Positions 2,134 through 59,957 of a stretch of DNA of 64,000 nt are shown piece by piece (position 1 is the stretch's first letter; every line of letters begins with the position of its first letter). The notes under the pieces were generated by a model. The model searched no databases and had not been told where the DNA came from. It was given only the letters and a program-made list of their open reading frames with translations. This stretch comes from an uncultured virus (IMG/VR IMGVR_UViG_3300025936_000004) (lineage: Duplodnaviria; Heunggongvirae; Uroviricota; Caudoviricetes). Where the stretch lies: the IMG/VR virus record IMGVR_UViG_3300025936_000004, one strand, 5' to 3'. The translations under genes were made by a program, and so were the position numbers.

Positions 2134-2346
2134 TCACGTGCCGTTCTTCCATTCCAGAATGTTTGCCTGTGAGAAGTCACGATCGACCTGATCGCCCAAG
2201 TCCCGCGCATGAAGCACCCATTCCTTGCGCCCGCCCTCTGTTTCCTTGCACCACGTTCGTCCGGGCATGATGCGTTTCCAAGCGATTTCACCATTGCGGT
2301 CACGATAACGAATGTTCACTGGTACCGGGTTACTTGTCTCGCTCAT
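2134..2346 (-). CDS. Stand-alone WYL-like domain protein
   Basis: IRYRDRNGEIAWKRIMP...WVLHARDL....RDF...I resembles the WYL fold pattern; ATGA overlap with the NUDIX gene. Confidence 0.55.
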   Translation of the reverse strand: MSETSNPVPVNIRYRDRNGEIAWKRIMPGRTWCKETEGGRKEWVLHARDLGDQVDRDFSQANILEWKNGT

Positions 2347-2741
2347 CCAAACGCTGCCTTGTGTTGATCGATTGCCCTGCAGACAATCGGATAATCCTCG
2401 GGGTGTGCGCCGGCGAGCAGTAAGCCAGGCAATCCCCAAAAGACGTTCTCTGCATCATCGCCCGCCGTGAGTTTTCCGGTCCATCGTAGCGCTCGAAAGA
2501 TGTGCACGTGCCAGTTGTCGACCGTCTTTTGATCGAACGGAATGAGGTCACGCCAGCCGACAGGCGTGGCAATGGTCAGGCCTGTTTCTTCGCGTAGCTC
2601 TCGAACGGCCGCGCTGAAGATTCCCTCGCCCGAGATCACCATGCCGCCGGGGATTTCCACGGATCCTTGCCGCTTGCGATTGCGCACCAAGAGCACCTGG
2701 CTATCCTGGACGGCGATGATAGCGACCGCGACGTTCATCAA
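2343..2741 (-). CDS. NUDIX hydrolase
   Basis: Nudix box GGMVISGEGIFSAAVRELREETGL. Confidence 0.9.
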   Translation of the reverse strand: MMNVAVAIIAVQDSQVLLVRNRKRQGSVEIPGGMVISGEGIFSAAVRELREETGLTIATPVGWRDLIPFDQKTVDNWHVHIFRALRWTGKLTAGDDAENVFWGLPGLLLAGAHPEDYPIVCRAIDQHKAAFG

Positions 2742-9819: not shown

Positions 9820-10242
9820 TCATAGAATCCCCCGAAGCGTTCCCGCGGCCTTGCGTTTCATGCGTGTCGCGCGAGCATTCCGAACATGCTGCACGTGATC
9901 AATACGAAGATGACAACGCTGGCAGAGACATAGCAAATTCATCTCATTGCAGTTCGACGGCGTTGGATCCGGGTAGTGAGCGATCGTGAGCACTACTCGG
10001 ACCAAGCGGCTACTGCATTCCGGATCGCCACCGAGACACAGCGAGCAGCCGTGATGCTCCTGCCATTGCGCGGGGTTTGCCGGGTTGCGCTTGATGATTG
10101 CGCCGTTGGGAACGTTGCAGCGCCCGCCATCGTGGGCGTCTCCGCACTGCCCCGAGCATTCGCAGCGCTCGCCCGCGCGCCTTAGGATCGAATCGCGGAT
10201 CTTGCGCCAGTTCTTCGGGTAGCGTGAATAGTCACAGGGCAT
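9820..10242 (-). CDS. HNH-family endonuclease
   Basis: CECSGQCG...VVLTIAH......NC...NL..LCQRCH. Confidence 0.75.
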   Translation of the reverse strand: MPCDYSRYPKNWRKIRDSILRRAGERCECSGQCGDAHDGGRCNVPNGAIIKRNPANPAQWQEHHGCSLCLGGDPECSSRLVRVVLTIAHYPDPTPSNCNEMNLLCLCQRCHLRIDHVQHVRNARATRMKRKAAGTLRGIL

Positions 10243-10813
10243 GGTGTGCCTCCCGAATCTGACTCAACGTACACAGCGCGCTGACCGGCACGTCCGGTCC
10301 CACTACGTTCCGAATGCGATCGAGCCCGTTCTGCTCTCGGTCAACCAGCGCAATCACCTGTCGAACGTGCAGACCGAAGTCCTGACACGCGAGCACTGCG
10401 GTGATGATGCTTTCGCCCGTGGTGACCACGTCATCGACAAGACAAACGTTGAAACCGGGCTGAACGGCACCTTCGATCATACAGTAGGTGCCGTGGGTTT
10501 TTTGTCGAAGACGAACGTAGAACCACGGCATCGTGTAGATGAACCGAGTGCTCCGAAGGGCCACTGCCGCAGCAATCGCAATGCCGCCTATTGCGACTCC
10601 GCCAATAGCGTCGACGTCGTTACGAGCGATGCCTACCGCTTCCGCGACCTCTCTGAGTGCATCGGGATGGCCCAGAACCTTACGGCAATCGAGGTACTCC
10701 CGTGTGGTCTGCCCAGATGCCAGAGTCATGTACTCGCCCGCTGGCTTCACCTGGTACGCATGGCGAGCAAGTAGCTCAACGAGCTTCGGATGAAGGCTGG
10801 GATCAACCGGCAT
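10232..10813 (-). CDS. pyrE: Orotate phosphoribosyltransferase-like type I PRTase
   Basis: LASG...YLDCR, YVR...KTHGT...IEG, PRPP motif LVDDVVTTGES, LVDRE. Confidence 0.85.
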   Translation of the reverse strand: MPVDPSLHPKLVELLARHAYQVKPAGEYMTLASGQTTREYLDCRKVLGHPDALREVAEAVGIARNDVDAIGGVAIGGIAIAAAVALRSTRFIYTMPWFYVRLRQKTHGTYCMIEGAVQPGFNVCLVDDVVTTGESIITAVLACQDFGLHVRQVIALVDREQNGLDRIRNVVGPDVPVSALCTLSQIREAHHAL

Positions 10814-26146: not shown

Positions 26147-26374
26147 GTGCGTCCAGCGGATGCGCAAAGCCTGCTTGATGCAGGCGCGCTCGCGAAGGCC
26201 CTCGGGATCCATCTACGCAAAGCCTATCGCTGGCTCTCAGCGTGGGACGCGCTTGGGATCCCGGGCATTCACCGAGTTCGAGCCAGGGGCAGTGCCGGAT
26301 TCCGGTACGCCATCGAGCCGTGGTTCGTCGACGAATGGCGTGCGTGCAGGATCCCGGCCCCGCGGTTGACATAA
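26147..26374 (+). CDS. Small HTH protein
   Basis: LLDAGALAKALGIHLRKAYRWL. Confidence 0.55.
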   Translation: MRPADAQSLLDAGALAKALGIHLRKAYRWLSAWDALGIPGIHRVRARGSAGFRYAIEPWFVDEWRACRIPAPRLT

Positions 26375-26378
26375 CCGA

Positions 26379-26454
26379 CACGGTGTAGCTCAACGGCAGA
26401 GCGCGGGACTGGTGACTTTCCCGAGGTTGCTTGGTTCGACTCCAAGCCCCGTGA
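26379..26454 (+). tRNA. tRNA-like element with 10-nt anticodon loop (Thr-GGT-like or pseudo-tRNA)
   Basis: CACGGTG-TA-GCTC-AACGGCA-GAGC-G-CGGGA-CTGGTGACTT-TCCCG-AGGTTG-CTTGG-TTCGACT-CCAAG-CCCCGTG-A. Confidence 0.65.
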
Positions 26455-26590
26455 CCGAGCCTGAGTCACCGAGCTTCCGCGGCCCCACGCGGCGCCTAAG
26501 GTGACACGGGCTCTTTGATCACTCCCGCCCGCTGATCTGAAAGCGGTGCCCCGACATCGCCCGCGGTGAATGCGTGGCGGGACCTAGACG

Positions 26591-26866
26591 ATGCAACATG
26601 ACACGCTCCCACCGCCCGATCCCGAAACGTGGCAATCGACCGAGCCCGTGGACCGGTGGACGGCCAACACGCGCGGGTTCGAGCATGTGCCAGACACGGT
26701 GCCAGACTTCGACGCGTTGACCGAGAAGGCACAGCAAGCCCAGGTCGCGGCAGTATCCGCCGACACCGAGCCGACTCACGACGATCTCGATCACGGCACG
26801 GGGCTGGACCCAGAGGAGCGGTTCTGGCTGCAGTTTGACGCGTGGCAGCAGCAGAGCGCGGGGTAA
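26591..26866 (+). CDS. Acidic hypothetical protein
   Basis: ORF between the structured non-coding segments. Confidence 0.45.
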   Translation: MQHDTLPPPDPETWQSTEPVDRWTANTRGFEHVPDTVPDFDALTEKAQQAQVAAVSADTEPTHDDLDHGTGLDPEERFWLQFDAWQQQSAG

Positions 26867-27009
26867 TTCGCGATTCGCGAATGACGAAAACGGGTGACCA
26901 GAGAATGACTGCGGTTGCGAAAAAGCCTGCAGGGAAGGGCACTGACCGGATCAGGTAGTCATCTGGTACGAGCCCATCCCCGGGGCACCCCCTTCCCTTA
27001 GCACATGGG

Positions 27010-27543
27010 TCAAGTTGTCCAAGGGCGGCGTTGCTTTTCGTGGATTCGCCAATCCCGTGGCTTCATGCGGGCTAGCTTGAATAGATCTTGTTCTTCAAGC
27101 GGACGCGTTGATCGGATCTCTTTCAGCGCTTTGATGATTCGCAGTAGGTCATCACAGGGCGTGAACCATTCACCACGCAGGTGAAACCGGCGAAACCGCC
27201 AATGCAGCATCTTTTCGGCTTTGCGGCCACCGGGACACCAAGCCAAGCATTGCAGCGCATGCGGGTGAGACGTCTGTAACTCTTTCAGTCTTGTCCCAAC
27301 GTGAAACGCGATTCCGATCTTGATCGGACCGTTGTCAGACTGAATGAAGTAGACCTTGCGCCTCTTTCCGGCTCTCTCTGTTTTTTGGGCGAGCCTTTCC
27401 GCGCGCTCTTCTCGGTATGCAATCAAGCATCCGCTGCACCAATCGATGAGCTTCGAGCTGACCTCCCCACGAACTCTGAATGGTTCGAGCTCGATCTTAG
27501 CCCCGCACTTGGTGCAGTGTTTTCCCTGAACTAAAGTATCCAT
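27010..27543 (-). CDS. GIY-YIG-superfamily T5orf172/MUG113-like protein, antisense insertion
   Basis: VYFIQ...IKIG....RL.ELQT..P..L...E..LH.RF......GEWF; N-terminal CTKC/CSGC. Confidence 0.82.
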   Translation of the reverse strand: MDTLVQGKHCTKCGAKIELEPFRVRGEVSSKLIDWCSGCLIAYREERAERLAQKTERAGKRRKVYFIQSDNGPIKIGIAFHVGTRLKELQTSHPHALQCLAWCPGGRKAEKMLHWRFRRFHLRGEWFTPCDDLLRIIKALKEIRSTRPLEEQDLFKLARMKPRDWRIHEKQRRPWTT

Positions 27544-27679
27544 GCTGGCGGGCTCCATTCCCGCTAGTCATGGGCCCGGCTGTTAGCAGCAGCGCGGGCC
27601 CACGTTATAAGCAAAGTTTAGCTTTTGGGGCTGGTTGAGCTAGCCAAACTGGCAGGCAGTCTCAAACAGATCTTGTCAA

Positions 27680-28240
27680 GTGAAATCTAGCAAAATCGAC
27701 AAGGCTTCGAAGGAATCCAGAGATTCCGTACCCTCTAAAAAAGAGCTTGCGGCGGAATGGGTGGAGATTACCGCGCTCAAGCCGTGGGATCGCAACCCGC
27801 GGCGCAACGATGACACGCATATTCAGCGGGTAGTCGAGAGCATCAAGCGCTTCGGGTTTGCTGCGCCGATCCTTGCTCGTCGTGAAGACGGCGAAGTGAT
27901 CGCGGGGCACACGCGGCTCAAGGCTGCCGAGATGCTCGGGATGACTCGCGTGCCGGTACGGTTCCTGGACCTGGATCCAGCCGATGCGCACCTGCTCGCG
28001 CTTGCGGACAATCGCTTGAACGAGCTTGGCTCTTGGGACAACGAGCAGCTCATTGCGCTACTCGGTGACCTACGACAGCAGGGCACGGACGTCGCGCTCG
28101 TAGCCGGTTGGCACGATACCGAGATTGATGCGTTGCTCAACACGACAGCAGAAGCGATCGCGCCGGAAGGGTTCAAGTCCTTCGATGAGTCGATCGAGAC
28201 CGAGCACAAGTGCCCCAAGTGCGGGTATGAATGGTCGTAA
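27680..28240 (+). CDS. ParB N-terminal (ParBc) domain protein with C-terminal zinc ribbon
   Basis: LKPWDRNPR.N....V..SIKRFGF..PI...VIAGHTRLKAA...ADNRL.E..WD; CPKCG. Confidence 0.9.
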   Translation: MKSSKIDKASKESRDSVPSKKELAAEWVEITALKPWDRNPRRNDDTHIQRVVESIKRFGFAAPILARREDGEVIAGHTRLKAAEMLGMTRVPVRFLDLDPADAHLLALADNRLNELGSWDNEQLIALLGDLRQQGTDVALVAGWHDTEIDALLNTTAEAIAPEGFKSFDESIETEHKCPKCGYEWS

Positions 28241-29538
28241 AGCGTAAGCAGGCACCAGCGAAGCCGCCTTACCGCGTGCCGAGCATGGCCGAGATCCGGG
28301 CCCTGCCGTGGAACGGTTTCAAGGTCGTAAGCACGTTCTCTGGTGGCGGCGGGTCTTGCCTTGGCTACCGCATGGCCGGCTTCAAGGTGGTCTGGGCGAA
28401 TGAGTTTATCCCCGCAGCGCGTGAGACCTACCAAGCGAACTTCGAAAGCACGATTCTTGATCCGCGGGATATCCGAAAGATCCAGCCCGAGGACATTCTC
28501 AAGGCTACCAAGCTCAAGGTCGGTGAGATTGACTTGCTCGATGGCTCCCCGCCGTGTGCGTCCTTCTCGACGGCCGGTAAGCGTGAAGAAGCCTGGGGCA
28601 AGGTCAAGGCCTACTCGGATACGGCCCAACGCGTTGATGATCTGTTCTTCGAGTACGCGCGCCTACTCAAAGGTCTTCAGCCGAAAACCTTCGTAGCCGA
28701 GAACGTCTCGGGTCTCGTGAAGGGCACGGCCAAGGGCTACTTCAAGGAGATTCTGGCAGCGCTCAAGGCATGCGGGTATCGCGTAGCCGCCCAGCTTCTT
28801 GATGCCCAGTGGCTCGGTGTTCCGCAGGCACGACAGCGATTGATCTTTGTCGGCGTGCGCAATGATCTCGGTCTAGCGCCCGCACACCCAAGCCCGCTGC
28901 CCTATCGATACAGCGTACGCGATGCGTTGCCGTGGATTACTGCCGTGACACACGACGCTAGGGGTTTCGAGGGTACCCGTGTTTTCGATGTTGCGAACGA
29001 GCCCATGTGTACGATCCGTTCCGCGGGTGGTGGCTCAAATATGCGTTTTCATGTGCAGGCTCAGAGCCGGGCCGTGAGCGTCGCAACGCACAAGAAAACG
29101 CGATCACTCGACGAGCCTGCTCCCACCGTGCTTACGCACGGCCGGCGTCACACGAATTCTGAGATCTCTCTCGTGATCGAGCCTGAGGCAGATATCTCGC
29201 GCTATGCGGTCGGTGCCGAATGGGACAAGCTCAAGCAAGGCGAGCAGAGCGAGAAATACTTTCAGCTCGTGCGCCCGGATCCGAACGCGCCGTGCCCGAC
29301 AATCACTCAGCGTGGCGGGGATGCGTCCGTTGCATCAGTCACGCACCCGACGGAGCGGCGTAAGTTCTCAATCGCGGAACTCAAGCGGATCTGTTCATTC
29401 CCGGATGACTTTGTGCTCAAAGGCACCTACGCTCAGCAATGGGAGCGCTGTGGTCGTTCCGTTCCCCCGGTCATGATGGCGGCAATCGCTTCCACGGTTC
29501 GTGACCAGATTCTTCGCAAGCTCTCATGTGCGGCCTAG
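28231..29538 (+). CDS. C5-cytosine DNA methyltransferase-fold enzyme, predicted carboxymethyltransferase
   Basis: Motif I FSGGGG, IV GSPPCASFS, VI ENVSGL, VIII QARQRL, IX R..S..E.KR..SFP; motif X reads ERCGRSV rather than GN(S/A)V. Confidence 0.9.
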   Translation: MVVKRKQAPAKPPYRVPSMAEIRALPWNGFKVVSTFSGGGGSCLGYRMAGFKVVWANEFIPAARETYQANFESTILDPRDIRKIQPEDILKATKLKVGEIDLLDGSPPCASFSTAGKREEAWGKVKAYSDTAQRVDDLFFEYARLLKGLQPKTFVAENVSGLVKGTAKGYFKEILAALKACGYRVAAQLLDAQWLGVPQARQRLIFVGVRNDLGLAPAHPSPLPYRYSVRDALPWITAVTHDARGFEGTRVFDVANEPMCTIRSAGGGSNMRFHVQAQSRAVSVATHKKTRSLDEPAPTVLTHGRRHTNSEISLVIEPEADISRYAVGAEWDKLKQGEQSEKYFQLVRPDPNAPCPTITQRGGDASVASVTHPTERRKFSIAELKRICSFPDDFVLKGTYAQQWERCGRSVPPVMMAAIASTVRDQILRKLSCAA

Positions 29539-30935
29539 TCGGGGGTCTATGGATCCAGCCGACTACCATCGAACGTGGAATCGCCGCACTGATTCACCGT
29601 GGCCCGGATCAACAATCCATCTTCCAGGCCGGTGACGTCGTACTAGGCCATACGCGCCTGGCCATCCTAGACCTCGATCCTCGCAGCAATCAGCCGTTTC
29701 ACTACGGCAAGGTTGCTCTCGCATTCAACGGAGAGATCTGGAATTACAAAGCCGTCCGAGCCCAACTCCAGACGCTTGGCAAAACCTTCACTACGACCGG
29801 TGACACCGAAGTCGTAGCCGCCGCGCTCCAGACGTGGGGCCCTGCTGCGTTGGCCAGGCTCAATGGGATGTTTGCCCTTGCCTGGACGAATGACGGCAAG
29901 ACGCTGCACCTAGCACGCGATCGTTTTGGTGAAGTCCCGCTGCACTATGCGCCCACCAAGCCGTTTGTGTTTGCGTCCGAACTCAAGGCACTGCTTGCCC
30001 TACGAGTCCAGCCCGCAGCGATCACGGATGTAGGACCGGGTGAGCGCCTAGAAGTCTCTGCCAAGGGCATTCGGAAGGCTCGTTGGTACGATCCCCCTGC
30101 CCGTCCCGTTCCGATGACACCCGAAGCCGCGCGGGCCTCCCTACGTGGCTTGATTGAACGAGGGTCTAGAGAGCGAGCGATTAGCGACGTCCCGGTCTGT
30201 ACCCTACTATCCGGCGGGATTGATTCGGCCGCGGTGGCCTACTTCCTAGCCCAAGAGCGTCCCGGGCTTGTAGCCTACACGGCCGTTCTGGATCGCAAGT
30301 CCAAAGACCTCCGGGCGGCTCGAGAGGTTGCTGCTGCGCTTCGGATCGAGTTACGCGAAATTCGCGTCCCGCCGCCATCAGCCGATGACCTGGCCAAGGT
30401 CGTGCGGGTCATCGAGCAGCCCTACAAGGCACAGGTCGAGATCGGCTGGGCTTGTCTACGGCTTGCCCAGGCCATGCATAGCGACGGCTTCAAGGTGACG
30501 TTTAGCGGGGAAGGTTCGGATGAACTCTGGGGCAGCTACGGCTTTGCCTACCACGCGCTCAAAACGCAGGACTGGCACACCTACCGCAAGAACCTGTTTC
30601 TGACCCAAGCCCGCAAGAACTTCCCCCGGTGCAACAAAGTCTTTATGGCCCACTCCGTAGAGTGCCGCCTGCCGTTTCTTCACCCGCCCTTGGTTGAGTT
30701 CGCGCTTTCGCTCCCCCAGCGGGTTGTTCAGGATGGCAAGGCGCGCCCCAAGGCGGTCATTCAGGATGCGATGGCGGGACTACTTCCCGCTATCGTGACG
30801 CGGCGCCCTAAGGTTGCCTTCCAGGACGGCATGGGCCTCAAAGCGGTCATTGAGTCCAGGCTTGCAAGCCCCCAGAGTTTCTATGCAGCCGAGTACCGAC
30901 GAACCTTCGGACGACAGTCTCGAGCATCAGCCTAG
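29526..30935 (+). CDS. Asparagine synthetase B-like glutamine amidotransferase
   Basis: MCG N-terminal nucleophile, HRGPD, RLAILD, NGEIWN, GDTEV, RDRFG, LSGGIDS, SGEGSDE, E.R.PFL. Confidence 0.92.
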   Translation: MCGLVGGLWIQPTTIERGIAALIHRGPDQQSIFQAGDVVLGHTRLAILDLDPRSNQPFHYGKVALAFNGEIWNYKAVRAQLQTLGKTFTTTGDTEVVAAALQTWGPAALARLNGMFALAWTNDGKTLHLARDRFGEVPLHYAPTKPFVFASELKALLALRVQPAAITDVGPGERLEVSAKGIRKARWYDPPARPVPMTPEAARASLRGLIERGSRERAISDVPVCTLLSGGIDSAAVAYFLAQERPGLVAYTAVLDRKSKDLRAAREVAAALRIELREIRVPPPSADDLAKVVRVIEQPYKAQVEIGWACLRLAQAMHSDGFKVTFSGEGSDELWGSYGFAYHALKTQDWHTYRKNLFLTQARKNFPRCNKVFMAHSVECRLPFLHPPLVEFALSLPQRVVQDGKARPKAVIQDAMAGLLPAIVTRRPKVAFQDGMGLKAVIESRLASPQSFYAAEYRRTFGRQSRASA

Positions 30936-31665
30936 CGGTCGGTGGTCGTTTGACCATGCCGTTGCAAGCTGTTTCGATGACATGCTTGCACGCTCGATCC
31001 CGCAATACGAAGCGCTCCGAGACGTCGTCACGCGGTTAACCCTTCGGTACGCACAAGACGGCACTGAGATCGTGGATCTTGGTTGTAGCCGTGGTAGTGG
31101 GCTTGCCCCGATTGCCGACGCGCTCAAAGGCCGATGCACGTTCGTCGGGACGGAAGTCTCTGAACCGATGCTCGCCTATGCCCGCGAGCAGTTTGCCGAT
31201 CGGCCAGATGTCAGCATCCGGCAGCATGACTTGCGTGATACCTACCCGGACGTTCGTGCAAGTGTCACGCTTGCGATTCTTACTTTGCAGTTCGTGCCGG
31301 TTGAATACCGAGCTCGTATCGTCTCTGATGTCTTTCGTTCTACGGTGCCGGGCGGCGCCTTTCTGTTTACAGAGAAGGTCATCGGCTCCACCGTTCGGAT
31401 CGATGACACCCTGATCGCGGAATACCACGCATACAAGCAGTCCCAGGGCTATTCCCCAGAAGCGATCGAGCGCAAACGCGCCTCTCTTGAAGGGGTCTTG
31501 GTTCCGATGCGCGCAGCATGGAACCACCAGATTCTCCAAGGCGCAGGCTTTACGCACGTTGAATGCGTCTGGCGTTGGATGAACTTCGCCGCCTGGGTTG
31601 CAATCAAAGACGGATCCCATGGCTCGGGTCACCAAACCGACCAAACTAACCCCGGAACTCTCTGA
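30883..31665 (+). CDS. cmoA: CmoA-like carboxy-S-adenosylmethionine synthase
   Basis: W.FD..VA..FDDML.RSIP.Y, DLGCS.G, TLQF, EK, I..KR.SLE.V, W...NF follow the CmoA pattern. Confidence 0.85.
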   Translation: MQPSTDEPSDDSLEHQPSGRWSFDHAVASCFDDMLARSIPQYEALRDVVTRLTLRYAQDGTEIVDLGCSRGSGLAPIADALKGRCTFVGTEVSEPMLAYAREQFADRPDVSIRQHDLRDTYPDVRASVTLAILTLQFVPVEYRARIVSDVFRSTVPGGAFLFTEKVIGSTVRIDDTLIAEYHAYKQSQGYSPEAIERKRASLEGVLVPMRAAWNHQILQGAGFTHVECVWRWMNFAAWVAIKDGSHGSGHQTDQTNPGTL

Positions 31666-32074
31666 GAAGATCTGTAGCGTCCTTCGAGCCGGCAACTACG
31701 TCGATACCGCAGCGGCCTACGCAGGCATTGCCAAGGATCGGTATTACGACTGGCTACGGCGTGGCGCGCGGGCCATTCAAGCGAATGACACGAGTGACGA
31801 GGAAGCTCCGTACCGAGACTTCCATGACGCGGTGCACGAAGCGATCGCAGCGTCCGAGATCCGCGACGTTGCGCTGATCGCCAAGGCTGCAACGGAGCAG
31901 TGGACAGCCGCCGCGTGGCGCTTAGAGCGTCGCTACCCGGAGAAGTGGGGCCGCAAAGAGCGGCACGAGCATACAGGTAAAGACGGTGGGGCTATCGCAA
32001 TCGATCTCCGATGGGCAGATGAAAAGACGGGTGAGGATTCGGAACAAACCGAGCCTTCACCCGAAACAGATTGA
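31619..32074 (+). CDS. Terminase small subunit
   Basis: PTKLTPE...I...LRAGNY..TAA.YAGI....YYDW; W.AAAWRLERRYP..WG. Confidence 0.8.
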   Translation: MARVTKPTKLTPELSEKICSVLRAGNYVDTAAAYAGIAKDRYYDWLRRGARAIQANDTSDEEAPYRDFHDAVHEAIAASEIRDVALIAKAATEQWTAAAWRLERRYPEKWGRKERHEHTGKDGGAIAIDLRWADEKTGEDSEQTEPSPETD

Positions 32075-33212
32075 GGTAGCTGATCATCCTGCGCGCTGGA
32101 AGGTTCTGGTCTGCGGCCGTCGCTGGGGCAAGACGCGCCTTGGCGTGGCAATGGGCGTGGTTAGAGCCATCGCTGGCCAAAGGGTCTGGTGGCTCGCTCC
32201 GACGTATGCGCAGGCTGGTATCGCATGGCGTCTCGTTGTCCCGCTGGCAGGTCAGGTGCCAGACGTTGAGATCCGAGTCGCCGAGAGGTGCATTCGATTC
32301 CCCGGTGGCGGTGAGTTCTGGTTCAAGTCGAGCGATAACGCCGACAACCTTCGCGGTGAGGGCATTGACTTTGTCGTCGTCGATGAAGCCGATTTCCAAC
32401 CCGGCGAGGTCTGGGAGAATGTGATTCGCCCAGCGCTTGCCGATCGCAAAGGCGGAGCCTTGTTCGTCTCGACGCCCAATGTCGAAGACGGCTGGTTTCA
32501 TGAGCTTTATAAAAGGGGTGAGCGCGGTGAATCTGGCTGGAAAAGCTGGTCTTTCCCGAGCGAAACGAATCCTTTTATCGATCCTAGTGAGATCGCTGTG
32601 GCACGGGCAGCGGTGCCAGACATTGTCGCTCGGCGAGAGTTTGGCGCGGAGTTTGTTTCCGCGGGTGGCGCTCGCATCAGCCGAGCGTGGCTGCAGACGA
32701 CCGAGCCGCCCGAGGGCCTATCCATCACGATGGGCGTGGACCTCGCGATTAGCGAAAAGACCTCCGCGGACTACACGGCGGTGGTGGTACTGGGGCGTGC
32801 GCCGAAAGGTGAACTGTGGATTCTAGACGCGCGCAGAGTTCGGGCGCCGTTTTATCAGGTGCTCGAATTCATCAAGCGGGCTGCGGCCGATTGGAATCCA
32901 CGAAAGATCGCCATCGAGCAGGTTCAGTATCAGGCCGCGGTGATTCAAGAGCTTCTTAGGACGACGTACCTGCCAGTGGAAGGCGTTCGGCCCGATCGGG
33001 ATAAGCTAACCCGTTTCCAGCCCCTTGAAGCGCGCTATGAGCAGGGGCTGATTCACCACGCTCCGGATCTTAATCCCGACTTCACGCGTGAGTTACTCTC
33101 GTTTCCGGTCGGCACCTATGACGACTTTTGTGACGCCGCGGCTTACGCATGGATTGCTCAGTCGGTTCCCCCGGCGAGCGCGACCGATGACTCTCCGTTG
33201 AATGACTACTGA
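32019..33212 (+). CDS. Terminase large subunit
   Basis: GRRWGKT, VVVDEA, STP, GVDLA, YDDFCDA. Confidence 0.95.
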   Translation: MKRRVRIRNKPSLHPKQIEVADHPARWKVLVCGRRWGKTRLGVAMGVVRAIAGQRVWWLAPTYAQAGIAWRLVVPLAGQVPDVEIRVAERCIRFPGGGEFWFKSSDNADNLRGEGIDFVVVDEADFQPGEVWENVIRPALADRKGGALFVSTPNVEDGWFHELYKRGERGESGWKSWSFPSETNPFIDPSEIAVARAAVPDIVARREFGAEFVSAGGARISRAWLQTTEPPEGLSITMGVDLAISEKTSADYTAVVVLGRAPKGELWILDARRVRAPFYQVLEFIKRAAADWNPRKIAIEQVQYQAAVIQELLRTTYLPVEGVRPDRDKLTRFQPLEARYEQGLIHHAPDLNPDFTRELLSFPVGTYDDFCDAAAYAWIAQSVPPASATDDSPLNDY

Positions 33213-34906
33213 TGGCAGTCTATGGCATCGCAACGCCCGGCGAGCGGTCGCTGTCGGACTTCTACGGTCGCAACGCGACGTACGGCAGCACGCGACGATA
33301 CAGGGAGGCCACCGAGGCGGAGGCGTACAACTTAGGTCTGCAGGACGAGTACCACGGCAAAAAGCCTTGGGATGACCCGACTGCCAAGCTCTCGGAGAAG
33401 TCCGCCAAGATCAAAGTGCCTCTGTACGCGGAGGCGATCAACGCGCTTGGGTCTTTCGTCTGGGGGCAAGGCACGTTCCCCAAGGCGATTGTCGGCGCCA
33501 CACGCGACGATGAGAGCCAAGGTGAGCCCGGCGAGATCGGCCCTGCCCTACAGAGCGATGACGCGCAGAAGCTCACCCGATTCGTGGCGGCGATGGTCGA
33601 GGCTTCGGACCTTGACCGAGCGATGCGAGAGGCTACACGCAAGGCCTTGATCACCACCTCCTGCGCATTGATCCTGGGCTGCCAAGGCGGCTACGTGATC
33701 GCGCAGAGCGAGCCCGGCAAGCATTGCACGCCGACGTTCGATCCAGTCTGCCCCAAGCGCCTAACCAAACTCGACATCATCTACCAGCACCAGAAGGAAG
33801 TCCCGAATGGTGTGGGTGGCGTTCGGCTTCGGTGGTTCTGGTACCGACGCACGATCGACACCGAGAAGGACACCGTCTACCTGGAGGAGATGGTGGTGGC
33901 GGGCCGACTGCCCGAGTGGAAGGTCGATCCAGACAAGACCGTGGAGCACGGCTTGGGGTTCTGTCCCGTCGTCTGGCTTCGTACGCTCCCGGATTCAAGC
34001 GATCCGCTCGACGGCAGGCCCGTCATCGATCCCCAGCTTTACCCGATGCTCGACGCGGTCAATCTTACGATCAGCCAACGTGATCGTGCCGTGGCCTACG
34101 GGTGTGAGCCGCAGGGCATTCGCAAAGGCGTAGATCTTGGCCAGCGCGAGGAACTCCGGAAGAACCCCGGCAAGGTATGGGACCTACCCGAAAACGGCGG
34201 CTTCGAGTGGGCGGAGATTAGCGGCGAGGGGGCGATTCGGGCCACCGAGCATCTCAATGATCTAACGGCACGCTTTCATGCAGCGACCCGCGTGGTTGCG
34301 TTTAGCCCAGAGCATCTGCGCGGCGACGTCTCCGGACGCTTCCTCGAGATGATTCACGCACCGATGATTGCCCTTGCGGGCGATCTTCGGAGCGACCTTG
34401 GGCGCGATGGCTATGCCGAACTAATCAAGCTTGGCCTTCGGCTGGTGGCTACGGTTGTTGAGCGCGGCGAGGACGTTTGGATCCCAGGCGCGTATGCTGC
34501 AGGCGATCTGCTTACCCGGGCTCAACTCGCTGGCCCTTGGCTCGATCCGCCCGTAACGCTGGCATACAGCAAGTACTTCAGCGAGACGCCCGCCGAGCAA
34601 CAGGCGCGGGTCACCACGGCACAGACCGCGGTTGACGCGGGATTTATCTCCAAGCACACCGCGACCCGAGAGCTGGCTGACGTGTTCCACGTGGAAGATC
34701 CTGAAGCGGAACACGAACTCGCCGAGCAAGAAGCCGACGAGGCGCGCCAACGGGCCATGGATGACATGGCCGCGCAGGCAAGTCTGAAAGACCCGGACGG
34801 CGACGGGGACGATGACACCATGCCCAAGGGCGATACGGATAAGGACTTCGCGGGCGCGCCCGCTGGCAAATCACCAAGCAAGCAGCGCGTGAAACCGCGC
34901 GAGTAG
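33212..34906 (+). CDS. Portal protein
   Basis: Follows TerL; 564 aa; HGLGFCPVVW motif of SPP1 gp6-like portals. Confidence 0.85.
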   Translation: MAVYGIATPGERSLSDFYGRNATYGSTRRYREATEAEAYNLGLQDEYHGKKPWDDPTAKLSEKSAKIKVPLYAEAINALGSFVWGQGTFPKAIVGATRDDESQGEPGEIGPALQSDDAQKLTRFVAAMVEASDLDRAMREATRKALITTSCALILGCQGGYVIAQSEPGKHCTPTFDPVCPKRLTKLDIIYQHQKEVPNGVGGVRLRWFWYRRTIDTEKDTVYLEEMVVAGRLPEWKVDPDKTVEHGLGFCPVVWLRTLPDSSDPLDGRPVIDPQLYPMLDAVNLTISQRDRAVAYGCEPQGIRKGVDLGQREELRKNPGKVWDLPENGGFEWAEISGEGAIRATEHLNDLTARFHAATRVVAFSPEHLRGDVSGRFLEMIHAPMIALAGDLRSDLGRDGYAELIKLGLRLVATVVERGEDVWIPGAYAAGDLLTRAQLAGPWLDPPVTLAYSKYFSETPAEQQARVTTAQTAVDAGFISKHTATRELADVFHVEDPEAEHELAEQEADEARQRAMDDMAAQASLKDPDGDGDDDTMPKGDTDKDFAGAPAGKSPSKQRVKPRE

Positions 34907-47324: not shown

Positions 47325-47663
47325 CTACCGTGACCGCTTGGCCGCAGCCCTCTTGGGGACTTGCTTGCTACGAGTGCCCTTGTCCCGCACATGCACTTCT
47401 AGTCGCATACCAAGGGCATCCGAGGCCTTCACCATGGTCGCAAGGGTTACCCCGGTGTCATTCGGATCCAAGAGTCGGTTGATCACGGTTCGGCTCGTGG
47501 CCATACGATCCGCAAGAGCCTTCTGAGAGACGTGCTTGAGTTCCATGGACCTGCGGAACTGCTCGGCAAGGATCTTCTTGCTAGCCAGCGTTTGCACTTC
47601 GCCGAGCTCGCCGAGCTCTTCAAAGAGCGATTCAAGGCTTGAGCCAATGTGCTTGTTTTTCAT
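47325..47663 (-). CDS. XRE-HTH antitoxin (HigA-like)
   Basis: MKNKHIGSSLE...SQKALADRMATSRTVINRLLDP...VTL.T. Confidence 0.88.
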   Translation of the reverse strand: MKNKHIGSSLESLFEELGELGEVQTLASKKILAEQFRRSMELKHVSQKALADRMATSRTVINRLLDPNDTGVTLATMVKASDALGMRLEVHVRDKGTRSKQVPKRAAAKRSR

Positions 47664-48010
47664 CGCTTCCCCTTCACCTTCTTGAGCCGTTCCTTGGCCG
47701 TCTTGAGCTCACCGGCCGGCGTCGCTTGGGTCTTCTTTTGAAAGCCGTGCAGCGCCACAATCGTGGTGCCTTCGACGCAGAAAAACAGTCGGTACTCACC
47801 GCACGCAGCCGTGGTTCGAAGCTCGTGCAGGCCCCCTCCTAGCGATCGGACGCGCGGCATACCCGTCGGCCAGAACGCCTGCACGTACAGCATGTCTGCT
47901 CCGATTTCGTGCCGCGCTTCTCTCGGAAGCCCACGAACCCACTCCCGGGCGGGTTCGTTGCCGGTCTCGCTTCGGTACCAAGCACACGTGAACTTGCGCG
48001 CTGTGGGCAC
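47660..48010 (-). CDS. RelE/HigB-like toxin (Gp49/DUF891-like)
   Basis: G..P.REW...W..G.P.VR.L..GL.ELR...YR.FF...LHGF.KKTQ.TP. Confidence 0.88.
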   Translation of the reverse strand: MPTARKFTCAWYRSETGNEPAREWVRGLPREARHEIGADMLYVQAFWPTGMPRVRSLGGGLHELRTTAACGEYRLFFCVEGTTIVALHGFQKKTQATPAGELKTAKERLKKVKGKR

Positions 48011-56922: not shown

Positions 56923-57350
56923 TCTACGTAGCTTTGGCGGACGCGACGCACCTGGATCGCCTTGTTGACTATGGAGCGCTTGGGATCTTTCTGCTGGTTG
57001 CCCTGTACGCCATCAAGACGCTGTACGGTCGAGATGACAAGCGTCAGGAAGCCAGAGAGAAGCAACTTCAGGACAGCTTACAACTCTACCAAGGGGCCCT
57101 GAAGGAACTCAAAGAGCTGCAGGATCTTCGCGTTCGAGAGGCCAATGAATACGCGAACAAGACGCTTGAGGCCGCCAAGGAAAACCTGCGCGTCGTTCAT
57201 CAGAACGAGACCACGGCCAGTCAGGTCACGGAGTGGATGGAGCGGCTGGAGGGACGCTTCGAGAAGTACCACCAAGACATGATGGTCTTGGTGCAAGCGC
57301 TACACTCGACAGGTGGCAGACCGCAACAAAACCATCCTGCTGGTGAATGA
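56919..57350 (+). CDS. Membrane-anchored coiled-coil protein (holin- or spanin-like)
   Basis: YGALGIFLLVAL TM helix followed by a coiled coil. Confidence 0.55.
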   Translation: MIYVALADATHLDRLVDYGALGIFLLVALYAIKTLYGRDDKRQEAREKQLQDSLQLYQGALKELKELQDLRVREANEYANKTLEAAKENLRVVHQNETTASQVTEWMERLEGRFEKYHQDMMVLVQALHSTGGRPQQNHPAGE

Positions 57351-57690
57351 CAACCCGCGCTGGCTCAGAGTTTTGAGAGAGATGCTGACCAGCATGGGCT
57401 TTACGGTCATCCCGGCTCACGACGGCATGGAGGCCTTCAGGCTTGCTCGTGGATATCTTCCGGATGTCGTGGTGAGTGACATTTGGATGGATGTGCTGAA
57501 CGGCTTTGAGCTGTGCAAGTGCATTCGTGCGACCGAGATCACGTCCAAAATCCCGGTGATTCTCTTTTCAAACTTGGACATGTCAAAGGAACGGCTTGAA
57601 CAAGCCAAGGCCGCGGGTGCCGATGCTTGTCTGCCGGGATCACCAGACTTGTCCGCCTTGCTAAGGAAGATTCGGGAGCTATCACCATGA
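57313..57690 (+). CDS. Single-domain response regulator receiver (atypical)
   Basis: ILLVND, A.DG.EA, PDVVVSDIWM, GFELC..IR, IPVIL.S, AGAD. Confidence 0.88.
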   Translation: MADRNKTILLVNDNPRWLRVLREMLTSMGFTVIPAHDGMEAFRLARGYLPDVVVSDIWMDVLNGFELCKCIRATEITSKIPVILFSNLDMSKERLEQAKAAGADACLPGSPDLSALLRKIRELSP

Positions 57691-59957
57691 TACCGAAGAT
57701 CGTCGAGATTCACGCTGCAGCGCCTTCCGTTCTCGTCGCGGTCGCCGAGAGTAGCCAGGACGAAAGCGGGATTGGGACAGCTCCCGACACGCTCGACCTT
57801 GACCCTGCCCATTGGCAGGTGAACGGACAGCCGCCCGTTGCGATTCATCGCGACTCGATGCCGTGGGATGAGGGCAAGGCGAAGACCGCAACGCAGCCCA
57901 ACACGTATCCTGTGACGGTACGCCATCGCATCTACTTGCATTTGGCGGCGCTTCTGCAGGACGGCACAACCTATGCGGTAACGGGCCCCTACGGCAGCCA
58001 AAGCATCGTGTTCGGCAGTCGTACAACGCCTTGCGAATCAATCAAGGTCAACCAAGTCGGTTACTCGGATCGAGCAACGTCCCGTTGGGCCGTGTTCGGT
58101 GTATACCTCGGCAACGGCGGTTCACTTCGTTTCAGCCCGTTCCCGGGCTATCAAGTCATCGATGAGAAGACTGGCAACGTAGTCTTTTCGGGCACCGTCG
58201 CCCGGGAGTTCGATGACACCGCGGTGAGCGCCACGGCCCCGACGTCGGGTGAGTGGGTGTATCGCCTGCCTTTGGATACGGTGCCTGCCGGTGGCCCGTA
58301 CTTTGTCTCGGTGCCAGGGTGCGGCCGATCGCGATCATTCGGGATTGGCCAGGAGTACACCCGAAAGGCTGCCTACGTCGCAACGCGGGGGCTCTATCAC
58401 CAGCGCTGCGGTATTGCCCTGGAAAGTCCGTATACGGAATTCACGCGCGGGATCTGTCACGCGAAGATTGCTGACACGCGTGCACAGTATCCTGGCAACG
58501 GGTTTATCAACGTTCCTTCGGGCGCGGCAATGGCGCCGATTCGGGGCGGCTACCACGACGCAGGCGACTTCCAACGCCGGCCTACGCATACGCTCATCCC
58601 GCTGCTCATGCTGAGCACCTACGAAGCGTGGCCGTCACACTTCATTGACCGGCAGTACAACCTCCCGGAATCCGGAAACGGCATTCCTGACTTTCTCGAC
58701 GAGGCCCTATGGGGCCTTTTGCTTTGGGAAAACTTACAGATCACCACGGCGGGAGATCCGCTGCAAGGTGGCGTGCGAGCCGGCACGCAGCGCGACGCAG
58801 AGCCCACCTACGGAGTCCATAGTGCTGCGAGCGATCCGGGCATGTATGGCACGTGGGCCCCGCTCGAGGAGACTACCGCGTTTGCCTGCGGGATGTTCGC
58901 GCAAGCTTCGCGCTTGGTTCGCCCGTTTGACTCGGCCCATGCCGACGCGCTGCTCAATCGTGCGCGGATGGCATGGGCGTATCTTCAGCGAACCACGAAC
59001 GTCAACCAGGCTGCCACGCGGTTTCTGTACCCCGCGCTACAGCTCTATCTAGCCACAGGGGAACAGCCGTTTCACGATCTGTTCAAGGCAGCTGCGCAAG
59101 CCGTCGTGGTGGTGGGCGCTTGGCCCGAGCAATACCTCCCGGGCAATACAGCAGCCAACTGCCTCACCGTTCACTTCGTGAGCTACCTGCTGCCCACCGA
59201 TCGTGCGGTGGATGCCACGCTGGCCACGGCGCTGAAGAGCAAGATCCTGCAGGGCGCTGCGAGCGGTGGCTACATGAATGTGGACACCGAGAACAGCCCC
59301 TACAGCCAAGGGGTCAACAAGTTCTATTCATGGGGCGCGATGACGGCCCAGGGGCGATACGCGGAAGTCTGTGCCTTTGCCACGCTCTTCGAGACGGACG
59401 CGACCAAGCGTCAAAAGTATACCAACACCGTCTCGCAGCTTGCAGACTACGCTCTCGGTCTCAATCCGCTTGGCAGGTCATTCTACACGGGCCTGGGAAC
59501 CGATTCGCCCAACAGCCCAGGACACTGCGACTCGTACTTTACCAAGTACGGCCTTTCTGATGGTGTGACCAGTGATCACGTCGGCAAGCCCATTGGCAAC
59601 GCGCCCGGTATCCTTGTCTTCGGTCCGACTGCAGGGGCTAGTGGCCAGTCCTACCAGACGGCTGTATCCAAAAAGCTTTCCCCCGACTGGGACGCTCTGC
59701 CGATTCAACGGCGTTACGGTGACGGCTGGTCACTGCTGAACTCCAACGAGTTCAGCACGTGGGAGACGATCGCATGGAACGTGATGATGCTCGGCTTCCT
59801 TCATGACGCGAGCAAAGATCCCGCGTCCATGACTCCGCCGCCCACGCCCGCGCCACAGCCCGGCACCGGGGTTCAGCTCACGGCAGCCCAGACCGACGCG
59901 CTCAAACGCATCATTGCGGATCTAGAGATCCTCAAAAGCGCGATCCCGGCTGGATAA
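57687..59957 (+). CDS. Glycoside hydrolase family 9 with N-terminal Ig-like domain
   Basis: IKVNQVGY, YHQRCG, GGYHDAGD, ESGNGIPD.LDE..W, LG.NP...S..TG.G, NE. Confidence 0.88.
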   Translation: MIPKIVEIHAAAPSVLVAVAESSQDESGIGTAPDTLDLDPAHWQVNGQPPVAIHRDSMPWDEGKAKTATQPNTYPVTVRHRIYLHLAALLQDGTTYAVTGPYGSQSIVFGSRTTPCESIKVNQVGYSDRATSRWAVFGVYLGNGGSLRFSPFPGYQVIDEKTGNVVFSGTVAREFDDTAVSATAPTSGEWVYRLPLDTVPAGGPYFVSVPGCGRSRSFGIGQEYTRKAAYVATRGLYHQRCGIALESPYTEFTRGICHAKIADTRAQYPGNGFINVPSGAAMAPIRGGYHDAGDFQRRPTHTLIPLLMLSTYEAWPSHFIDRQYNLPESGNGIPDFLDEALWGLLLWENLQITTAGDPLQGGVRAGTQRDAEPTYGVHSAASDPGMYGTWAPLEETTAFACGMFAQASRLVRPFDSAHADALLNRARMAWAYLQRTTNVNQAATRFLYPALQLYLATGEQPFHDLFKAAAQAVVVVGAWPEQYLPGNTAANCLTVHFVSYLLPTDRAVDATLATALKSKILQGAASGGYMNVDTENSPYSQGVNKFYSWGAMTAQGRYAEVCAFATLFETDATKRQKYTNTVSQLADYALGLNPLGRSFYTGLGTDSPNSPGHCDSYFTKYGLSDGVTSDHVGKPIGNAPGILVFGPTAGASGQSYQTAVSKKLSPDWDALPIQRRYGDGWSLLNSNEFSTWETIAWNVMMLGFLHDASKDPASMTPPPTPAPQPGTGVQLTAAQTDALKRIIADLEILKSAIPAG

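What the first reader, a model, noticed from the sequence alone, without database searches (positions are those of the whole stretch)
30883..31665. Phage CmoA keeps the carboxy-SAM-specific Arg and has no CmoB partner
Seen: IERKRASLEGVL (Arg codon 31477-31479) parallels E. coli CmoA ISQKRSMLENVM, whose Arg199 binds the carboxy-SAM carboxylate; the WxFD..VA..F.DM..RS.P.Y N-terminus is also kept. Inference: it is a true cofactor synthase rather than a generic methyltransferase, and it would draw on host prephenate to supply DNA modification.
Basis: partly seen in the sequence, partly recalled or inferred. Interest (0 to 1): 0.75.

Follow-up and report, generated by a model that had tools for sequence, protein, structure and literature searches.

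The report
Phage carboxy-SAM synthase for DNA carboxymethylation
This gene of a complete uncultured temperate phage likely makes the cofactor carboxy-SAM for the DNA cytosine carboxymethyltransferase encoded two genes upstream, so it is one more member of a phage DNA-modification system published in 2025; only the predicted final base, an amide, has not been shown in the papers I could search.

Summary
Observation confirmed. The Arg codon is at 31477-31479 and aligns with E. coli CmoA Arg199. The best family match is CmoA (155.6 bits; best non-CmoA family 25.6), and the complete 65.9-kb circular phage genome has no cmoB. The missing partner lies upstream: parB, cmoX (SPPC plus Arg409, equal to Arg350 of SpCmoX, PDB 8YF3), a glutaminase-fused cmoY, then cmoA, overlapping terS. 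This is the CmoA/CmoX/CmoY 5-carboxymethylcytosine system of Yang et al. 2025 (PMC12783734), which already reports phage cmoA without cmoB and counts 4,257 such CmoA sequences. One correction: Arg199 is not the family's diagnostic. The biochemically proven phage CmoA has Glu there and Arg four residues later. The likely host is a myxobacterium, a group that mostly lacks cmoA (8 of 201 genomes match). The predicted final base is 5-carbamoylmethylcytosine; the paper anticipated ammonia ligation for this ligase type but could not test it. This scan already noted the system on other genomes and noted the cmoX of this window. New member of a known kind; low interest.

The parts
27680..28240 (+). 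ParBc-domain protein, usual companion of cmoX; role unknown
   Evidence: PF02195 E 2.5e-8; phrog_620; 1,660 ParBc sequences counted with CmoX in PMC12783734
28231..29538 (+). cmoX: predicted DNA cytosine-C5 carboxymethyltransferase, 435 aa; SPPC 106-109 (Cys codon 28555-28557), Arg409 (29455-29457) in place of motif-X Asn
   Evidence: Best PDB hit 8YF3 (SpCmoX) 244.6 bits against 91.1 for M.HaeIII; R409 aligns with SpCmoX R350
29526..30935 (+). cmoY, glutaminase-fused type: Ntn amidotransferase plus ATP-dependent amide ligase, 469 aa; Cys2 at 29529-29531
   Evidence: GATase_6 and Asn_synthase; Cys2, Arg25, Arg44, Asn68, Gly69, Asp93 kept; AsnB Arg325 is Glu305 and Val321 is Lys301, as in SpCmoY; about 55% identical to Streptomyces phage TurkishDelight gp124
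30883..31665 (+). cmoA: predicted carboxy-SAM synthase, 260 aa (the finding)
   Evidence: TIGR00740 155.6 bits; PHROG 4752; model pLDDT 89.9, top fold match E. coli CmoA; tree
31474..31479 (+). Lys198-Arg199 codons; Arg199 corresponds to the carboxylate-binding Arg of E. coli CmoA
   Evidence: role of Arg199 from passages of PMC3663124
31619..32074 (+). terminase small subunit, overlapping the 3' end of cmoA by 47 bases and tying the cassette to the packaging gene run
   Evidence: phrog_4102 E 3e-37; start codon

Best explanation
The gene likely encodes a carboxy-SAM synthase (phage CmoA) that would convert SAM and host prephenate into carboxy-SAM for the phage's own DNA cytosine carboxymethyltransferase CmoX, encoded two genes upstream, not for tRNA modification. 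CmoX would transfer the carboxymethyl group to cytosine C5 through Cys109, with Arg409 holding the carboxylate. The glutaminase-fused CmoY would then adenylate the carboxyl and add glutamine-derived ammonia, giving 5-carbamoylmethylcytosine. The purpose is likely protection from host restriction. SHOWN here: sequence, residues, gene order, family, fold and tree placement, absence of cmoB and of chorismate mutase. SHOWN for homologues only (PMC12783734): Cx-SAM synthesis, 5cxmC formation, HhaI resistance. INFERRED: activity of these proteins, the amide end product (about 0.6), late expression with the packaging genes, a myxobacterial host. The target sequence is unknown.
For: Family: TIGR00740 155.6 bits against 25.6 for the best non-CmoA family, and higher than the proven SpCmoA at 115.6. 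Tree: in a 12-row group (99/97) sister to E. coli CmoA plus one chromosomal CmoA (96/95), with SpCmoA outside, so it lies between two proven synthases. Cofactor-contact residues named in PMC3663124: Y39, D62, G64, S66, D117, F137, R199 and E164 are kept. Fold: top hit 4GEK, Z 29.1, rmsd 2.2 A over 225 residues. Consumer: CmoX meets both published criteria. Context: of 79 viral loci found with the ligase, 67 have cmoA, 73 cmoX, 62 both, 0 cmoB, and 70 of 73 CmoX have the motif-X Arg (redundant set, 15 CmoA clusters at 90%; L007 is this same phage). Host need: 0 of 20 genomes bearing related integrases have cmoA, 8 of 201 in the phylum sample match and 1 passes the cut-off; 5 of 5 tested have chorismate mutase, the phage has none.
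Against: No activity was measured. It scores below the curated cut-offs for bacterial CmoA (193.3 and 285). Asn132 is Ile (hydrophobic also in SpCmoA and in 120 of 120 listed homologues). The fold barely separates it from the SAM-dependent methyltransferases CysG and BelI (Z 27.6 and 26.7 against 29.1), and these were not in the tree. The tree's outgroups are long branches, and the branch uniting all CmoA-like rows is weak (87/88). Identity to either proven enzyme is only 29%. No glutaminase-fused CmoY has been assayed. The host rests on the integrase alone (best named matches 56-59% identical).
Confidence: 0.88

Rival explanations
1. CmoA and CmoX work as described, but the pathway does not end in the primary amide: it stops at 5cxmC, or CmoY adds another amine. 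This rivals the last step only.
For: The only assayed CmoY adds glycine, and the glutaminase-fused cluster could not be obtained soluble (PMC12783734). The window's ligase is only 24% identical to SpCmoY.
Against: All glutaminase catalytic positions of AsnB are kept here, and Cys2 is present in 65 of 78 related loci, the other 13 showing a gap at that column. The ligase domain keeps AsnB E349, D352, E353, K450, several of which differ in SpCmoY.
Confidence: 0.35
2. It is an ordinary SAM-dependent small-molecule methyltransferase of the CmoA-like fold (CysG/BelI kind).
For: CysG and BelI share the fold closely (Z 27.6, 26.7); Pfam gives only generic methyltransferase domains; below curated CmoA cut-offs.
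Against: By sequence 111 bits to CmoA against 45 to the next methyltransferases; groups with E. coli CmoA; the neighbouring CmoX has the Arg that in SpCmoX goes with use of Cx-SAM only.
Confidence: 0.04
3. It is an auxiliary metabolic gene supplying Cx-SAM to a host CmoB for cmo5U in tRNA.
For: It is nearer to E. coli CmoA than SpCmoA is. The cofactor is diffusible: host CmoA can feed phage CmoX.
Against: No cmoB in the genome or in 79 related loci. The only tRNA called has a GTG anticodon, so no wobble U. A Cx-SAM consumer is in the same gene run. Host cmoB was not searched.
Confidence: 0.04
4. Its main role is to drain SAM and so weaken SAM-dependent host defences.
For: Raised as an open question in the discussion of PMC12783734; SpCmoA is ten times faster than EcCmoA.
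Against: Tight linkage to cmoX (62 of 67 cmoA loci) and a position among late packaging genes, not early genes.
Confidence: 0.04

Closest known systems
CmoA-CmoX-CmoY system of Synechococcus phage S-B43 (Yang et al., Nat Commun 2025, PMC12783734; SpCmoX PDB 8YF3)
   Same: CmoA homologue without cmoB, next to a C5-methyltransferase homologue with SPPC and motif-X Arg and an asparagine-synthetase-like ligase; CmoX 42% identical; ligase shares Lys301/Glu305.
   Different: Gene order X-Y-A instead of A-Y-X. The ligase has an N-terminal glutaminase domain (SpCmoY lacks it and adds glycine). CmoA is of the Arg199/Glu203 type, SpCmoA of the Glu/Arg type, 29% identical. CmoX is about 60 aa longer in the variable region, so GC specificity cannot be assumed. 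Temperate 66-kb phage, cassette overlapping terS.
Streptomyces phage TurkishDelight gp122-125 (MW291017)
   Same: Same order parB-cmoX-glutaminase-fused cmoY-cmoA; CmoX 62%, ligase 55% identical. Probably the paper's second ligase cluster type.
   Different: Its CmoA is only 28% identical and of the Ala/Arg type, so cmoA and cmoXY have different histories. Not assayed. I could not confirm that gp124 is the paper's A0A7T0Q3R0.
E. coli CmoA (P76290; PDB 4GEK, 4IWN; TIGR00740)
   Same: Fold, lid helices, Arg199, Tyr39, Asp62, Asp117, Glu164.
   Different: 29% identical; Asn132 is Ile, Asp89 is Glu; below the equivalog cut-off; no cmoB; the predicted acceptor is DNA cytosine, not tRNA ho5U.

Membership tests
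Phage CmoA/CmoX/CmoY system (Yang 2025) | CmoA homologue in a phage genome lacking cmoB | tested here: met
Phage CmoA/CmoX/CmoY system (Yang 2025) | Neighbouring C5-MTase homologue with SPPC motif and Arg equivalent to R350 (the paper's own search criteria) | tested here: met
   S106-C109 and R409
Phage CmoA/CmoX/CmoY system (Yang 2025) | Neighbouring AMP-forming (asparagine-synthetase-like) ligase | tested here: met
   29526-30935; glutaminase-fused subtype
Phage CmoA/CmoX/CmoY system (Yang 2025) | ParBc gene nearby (frequent, not required) | tested here: met
   27680-28240
Phage CmoA/CmoX/CmoY system (Yang 2025) | Cx-SAM formed from SAM and prephenate; 5cxmC or derivative in DNA | not testable with these tools
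   needs LC-MS
SpCmoY-type glycine ligase | ATP-binding domain only, no glutaminase domain | tested here: not met
   469 aa with intact GATase domain; not filed under this subtype
Bacterial CmoA equivalog (TIGR00740 / PRK15451) | Score above curated cut-off | tested here: not met
   155.6 < 193.3 and 107.1 < 285; proven SpCmoA also fails at 115.6. Not filed as a member; it works like one.
Bacterial CmoA equivalog (TIGR00740 / PRK15451) | Arg199 | tested here: met
Bacterial CmoA equivalog (TIGR00740 / PRK15451) | Asn132 | tested here: not met
   Ile132; Leu in SpCmoA
Bacterial CmoA equivalog (TIGR00740 / PRK15451) | Partner cmoB | tested here: not met
Asparagine synthetase B (for the neighbour 29526-30935) | Arg325 for aspartate binding | tested here: not met
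   Glu305 here and in 74 of 78 related loci, 4 gaps; role of R325 from a passage of PMC12018205. TIGR01536 is passed (293.5 > 267.1), so automatic annotation would misname it.
CysG/BelI-type SAM methyltransferases | Closer to these than to CmoA by sequence and fold | tested here: inconclusive
   Sequence favours CmoA (111 vs 45 bits); fold gap small (Z 29.1 vs 27.6); not included in the tree

The most novel reading that the evidence does not exclude
This temperate, probably myxobacterial phage carries 5-carbamoylmethylcytosine in its DNA, a base I found no report of, made by CmoA, CmoX and a glutaminase-fused CmoY expressed with the packaging genes. In addition, phage CmoAs fall into classes that place the carboxylate-binding Arg at position 199 or one helical turn later at 203, which I did not find in the paper's text or searchable supplements.
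Probability: 0.55. Interest if true: 0.45.

Novelty: new member of a known kind. Interest (0 to 1): 0.2.

Why it matters
Little for the finding itself: phage Cx-SAM synthases without CmoB are published and number in the thousands. What remains useful: a compact four-gene cassette of the glutaminase-fused subtype, which the discoverers could not express, offers another chance to show the predicted amide base. Its CmoA is closer to E. coli CmoA than the assayed phage enzyme. And Arg199 should not be used alone to recognise or exclude phage CmoAs.

Tried and rejected
CmoB anywhere in the genome: none. Phage chorismate mutase, seen in other such cassettes: none. Arg199 as family diagnostic: rejected. 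By hand, of 15 clusters at 90% identity 4 have Arg at 199 (one mixed with Lys, one is this phage), 1 Lys, 6 Arg at 203, and 4 neither. Fold search as a discriminator against true methyltransferases: weak. Target motif from k-mer bias: no usable signal (GC 1.12, CG 1.19, GCGC slightly over-represented). Promoter scan of 26300-33300: 0 sites, terminators at chance level, so co-transcription rests on gene overlaps only. Host from the capsid gene: no hit in genome contigs; from the portal: 44 hits, one named (Desulfurellales MAG), at odds with the integrase result. Identity of A0A7T0Q3R0: not found in supplements. PMC7496830 had no passage on R199. No complex prediction or read mapping was run.

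Full report
Observation. The frame 30883-31665 encodes 260 aa. Codon 31477-31479 is CGC, Arg199, in IERKRASLEGVL. It aligns with Arg199 of E. coli CmoA in the PDB alignment and against the annotated K-12 gene. Passages of PMC3663124 state that Arg199 salt-bridges the carboxylate and list the other cofactor contacts. Of these the window protein keeps Y39, D62, G64, S66, D117, F137 and R199, and also E164; D89 is Glu, N90 Val, I118 Leu, A70 Gly and N132 Ile. The start is supported by a 75%-identical relative with the same N-terminus, which ends where the window protein runs on for 17 residues into terS.

Setting. The record is a 65,941-base circular phage genome with a 127-base terminal repeat, rated 100% complete. 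It has an integrase, primase, DnaB, terminase, portal, capsid, tail sheath and baseplate genes, so it is likely a temperate myovirus. CmoB is absent: 0 matches to PF08003 at E<=1, with the control ringing in 13 of 14 genomes, and best tblastn E 0.31. The gene closes a run of overlapping genes, parB-like 27680-28240, C5-methyltransferase-like 28231-29538 and asparagine-synthetase-like 29526-30935, and itself overlaps terS at 31619.

Is it a CmoA? TIGR00740 scores 155.6 bits, the best non-CmoA family 25.6. That is under the curated 193.3, but the proven phage enzyme SpCmoA scores only 115.6. I identified SpCmoA as L002:2512-3207, whose ends match the paper's cloning primers. In a 31-row tree the protein lies in a 12-row group (99/97) that is sister to E. 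coli CmoA plus one chromosomal CmoA (96/95); SpCmoA lies outside. The outgroups are long branches and CysG/BelI were not available as sequences. The model (pLDDT 89.9) matches 4GEK best (Z 29.1, rmsd 2.2 A, 225 residues), but CysG (27.6) and BelI (26.7) follow closely, so the fold alone is not decisive.

The consumer. The upstream methyltransferase homologue matches PDB 8YF3 (SpCmoX) at 244.6 bits against 91.1 for M.HaeIII. It has SPPC at 106-109 and Arg409 where HaeIII has Asn and SpCmoX has Arg350; these are the two criteria the paper used to collect 5,615 CmoX. Of 79 viral loci found with the ligase (6 kb flanks, many cut by contig ends), 67 hold cmoA, 73 cmoX, 62 both, 1 neither and 0 cmoB; 70 of 73 CmoX show the Arg. 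The set is redundant: 15 CmoA clusters at 90%, one with 42 members, and L007 is this same phage. Among cultured phages 82 records have a CmoA match, and Streptomyces phage TurkishDelight has the same four genes in the same order.

The ligase. It keeps the glutaminase residues of E. coli AsnB (C2, R31, R50, N75, G76, D99) and the synthetase residues S235, D239, E349, D352 and K450; that these are the catalytic positions is recalled. AsnB Arg325, tied to aspartate binding (passage of PMC12018205), is Glu305, and Val321 is Lys301; both are shared with SpCmoY and with 74 of 78 related loci, the other 4 being gaps. So it is likely a CmoY and not an asparagine synthetase, although it passes the TIGR01536 cut-off. 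The paper describes this glutaminase-fused cluster, predicts ammonia as substrate and reports that it could not be made soluble. The inferred product is 5-carbamoylmethylcytosine.

Among the 120 closest homologues listed (of 3,023 found, query included) Arg199 is in 115 and Lys in 5. But the assayed SpCmoA has Glu at that column and Arg at the column of E. coli Glu203, and TurkishDelight has Ala and Arg. Among the 67 ligase-linked CmoAs: R/E 9, K/E 4, E/R 44, A/R 3, neither 5, truncated 2; K165 is in 67 of 67 and K198 in 65 of 67. Both positions lie on or at the end of one helix of the model (192-202), so an Arg shifted by one turn is a plausible reading; it is not tested. Arg199 therefore supports the call but does not define phage CmoA.

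Host and prephenate. Of the 80 best integrase-related loci in bacterial genomes, by my count of record titles 56 are myxobacterial, 12 'delta proteobacteria' and 12 other (the scan covered 43 of 64 parts). The portal search gave one named hit from another group, so the host is likely, not shown. None of 20 integrase-bearing genomes has cmoA. In 201 genomes of the phylum of G001, 8 match and 1 passes the cut-off. Five of 5 genomes tested have chorismate mutase; the phage has none. This fits a phage that must bring its own synthase and draw prephenate from the host.

Mechanism. Likely: CmoA makes Cx-SAM from SAM and prephenate; CmoX carboxymethylates cytosine C5; CmoY amidates the carboxyl; the modified DNA resists restriction. 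The first two steps and HhaI protection are shown for S-B43, none for this phage. Late expression with the packaging genes is inferred from overlaps only (one search found no promoter).

Literature seen. PMC12783734: parts 1-6 of 8 of the text (abstract to methods, start of references), part 1 of 2 of supplement 1, and term searches in 4 supplementary files; figures, including the ligase logos, are not held and may bear on the subtype and on the Arg positions. PMC3663124 and PMC12018205: passages. PMC7496830: listing and an empty term search. Kim et al. 2013: not read, known through Yang's introduction. Searches for a report of the amide base or follow-up work; one search had 37 papers, of which the 20 listed matched only the term 'carbamoylmethyl-2' (mostly tRNA uridines). 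The library lacks most subscription journals.

Earlier scan notes. The cmoX of this window and four findings on other genomes were already assigned to this system. They are not independent evidence.

Verdict. Real, correctly read, already published as a kind. It is filed under the phage CmoA/CmoX/CmoY system, glutaminase-fused subtype, and not under the bacterial CmoA equivalog. New member of a known kind; interest 0.2.

Noticed in passing
window 57627-59957 (+): 776-aa protein with a cellulase Ig-like domain and a glycoside hydrolase family 9 domain (E 3.8e-28), after the tail and lysis-like genes: a possible phage-borne cellulase or depolymerase in a likely myxobacterial phage.
   Followed up: no
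L002:2512-3207, L001:6581-7363, L009-L065: Many phage CmoAs, including the assayed SpCmoA, have Glu or Ala at the Arg199 column and Arg at the Glu203 column, an apparent one-turn shift.
   Followed up: partly
L062, L066, L067, L068, L080: CmoA homologues beside Arg-type CmoX that have no Arg at either column; L066, L067 and L080 form a long branch. How they bind the carboxylate is unexplained.
   Followed up: no
L167, L170, L171, L172 (G112, G171, G077, G201): CmoA-like domains in genomes of the likely host phylum, some in long open frames (783 and 508 aa), one beside an asparagine-synthetase-like gene (L171); no CmoX within 1.5 kb.
   Followed up: partly
window 26379-26456 (+): Single tRNA gene, called His(GTG) by ARAGORN; the anticodon loop looks irregular by eye.
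   Followed up: no
window 47325-48010 (-): Gp49-like gene plus HTH gene on the opposite strand inside the baseplate region, resembling a toxin-antitoxin pair.
   Followed up: no
window 57313-57690 (+): Stand-alone response-regulator receiver domain (E 2.3e-17).
   Followed up: no
window 27010-27558 (-): MUG113/T5orf172-type nuclease-like gene on the opposite strand just upstream of the cassette.
   Followed up: no
window 10232-10813 (-) and 2343-2741 (-): Phosphoribosyltransferase-like and NUDIX genes among the early genes.
   Followed up: no
L008: Glutaminase-fused ligase 55% identical to the window's, with neither cmoA nor cmoX within 6 kb on either side.
   Followed up: no
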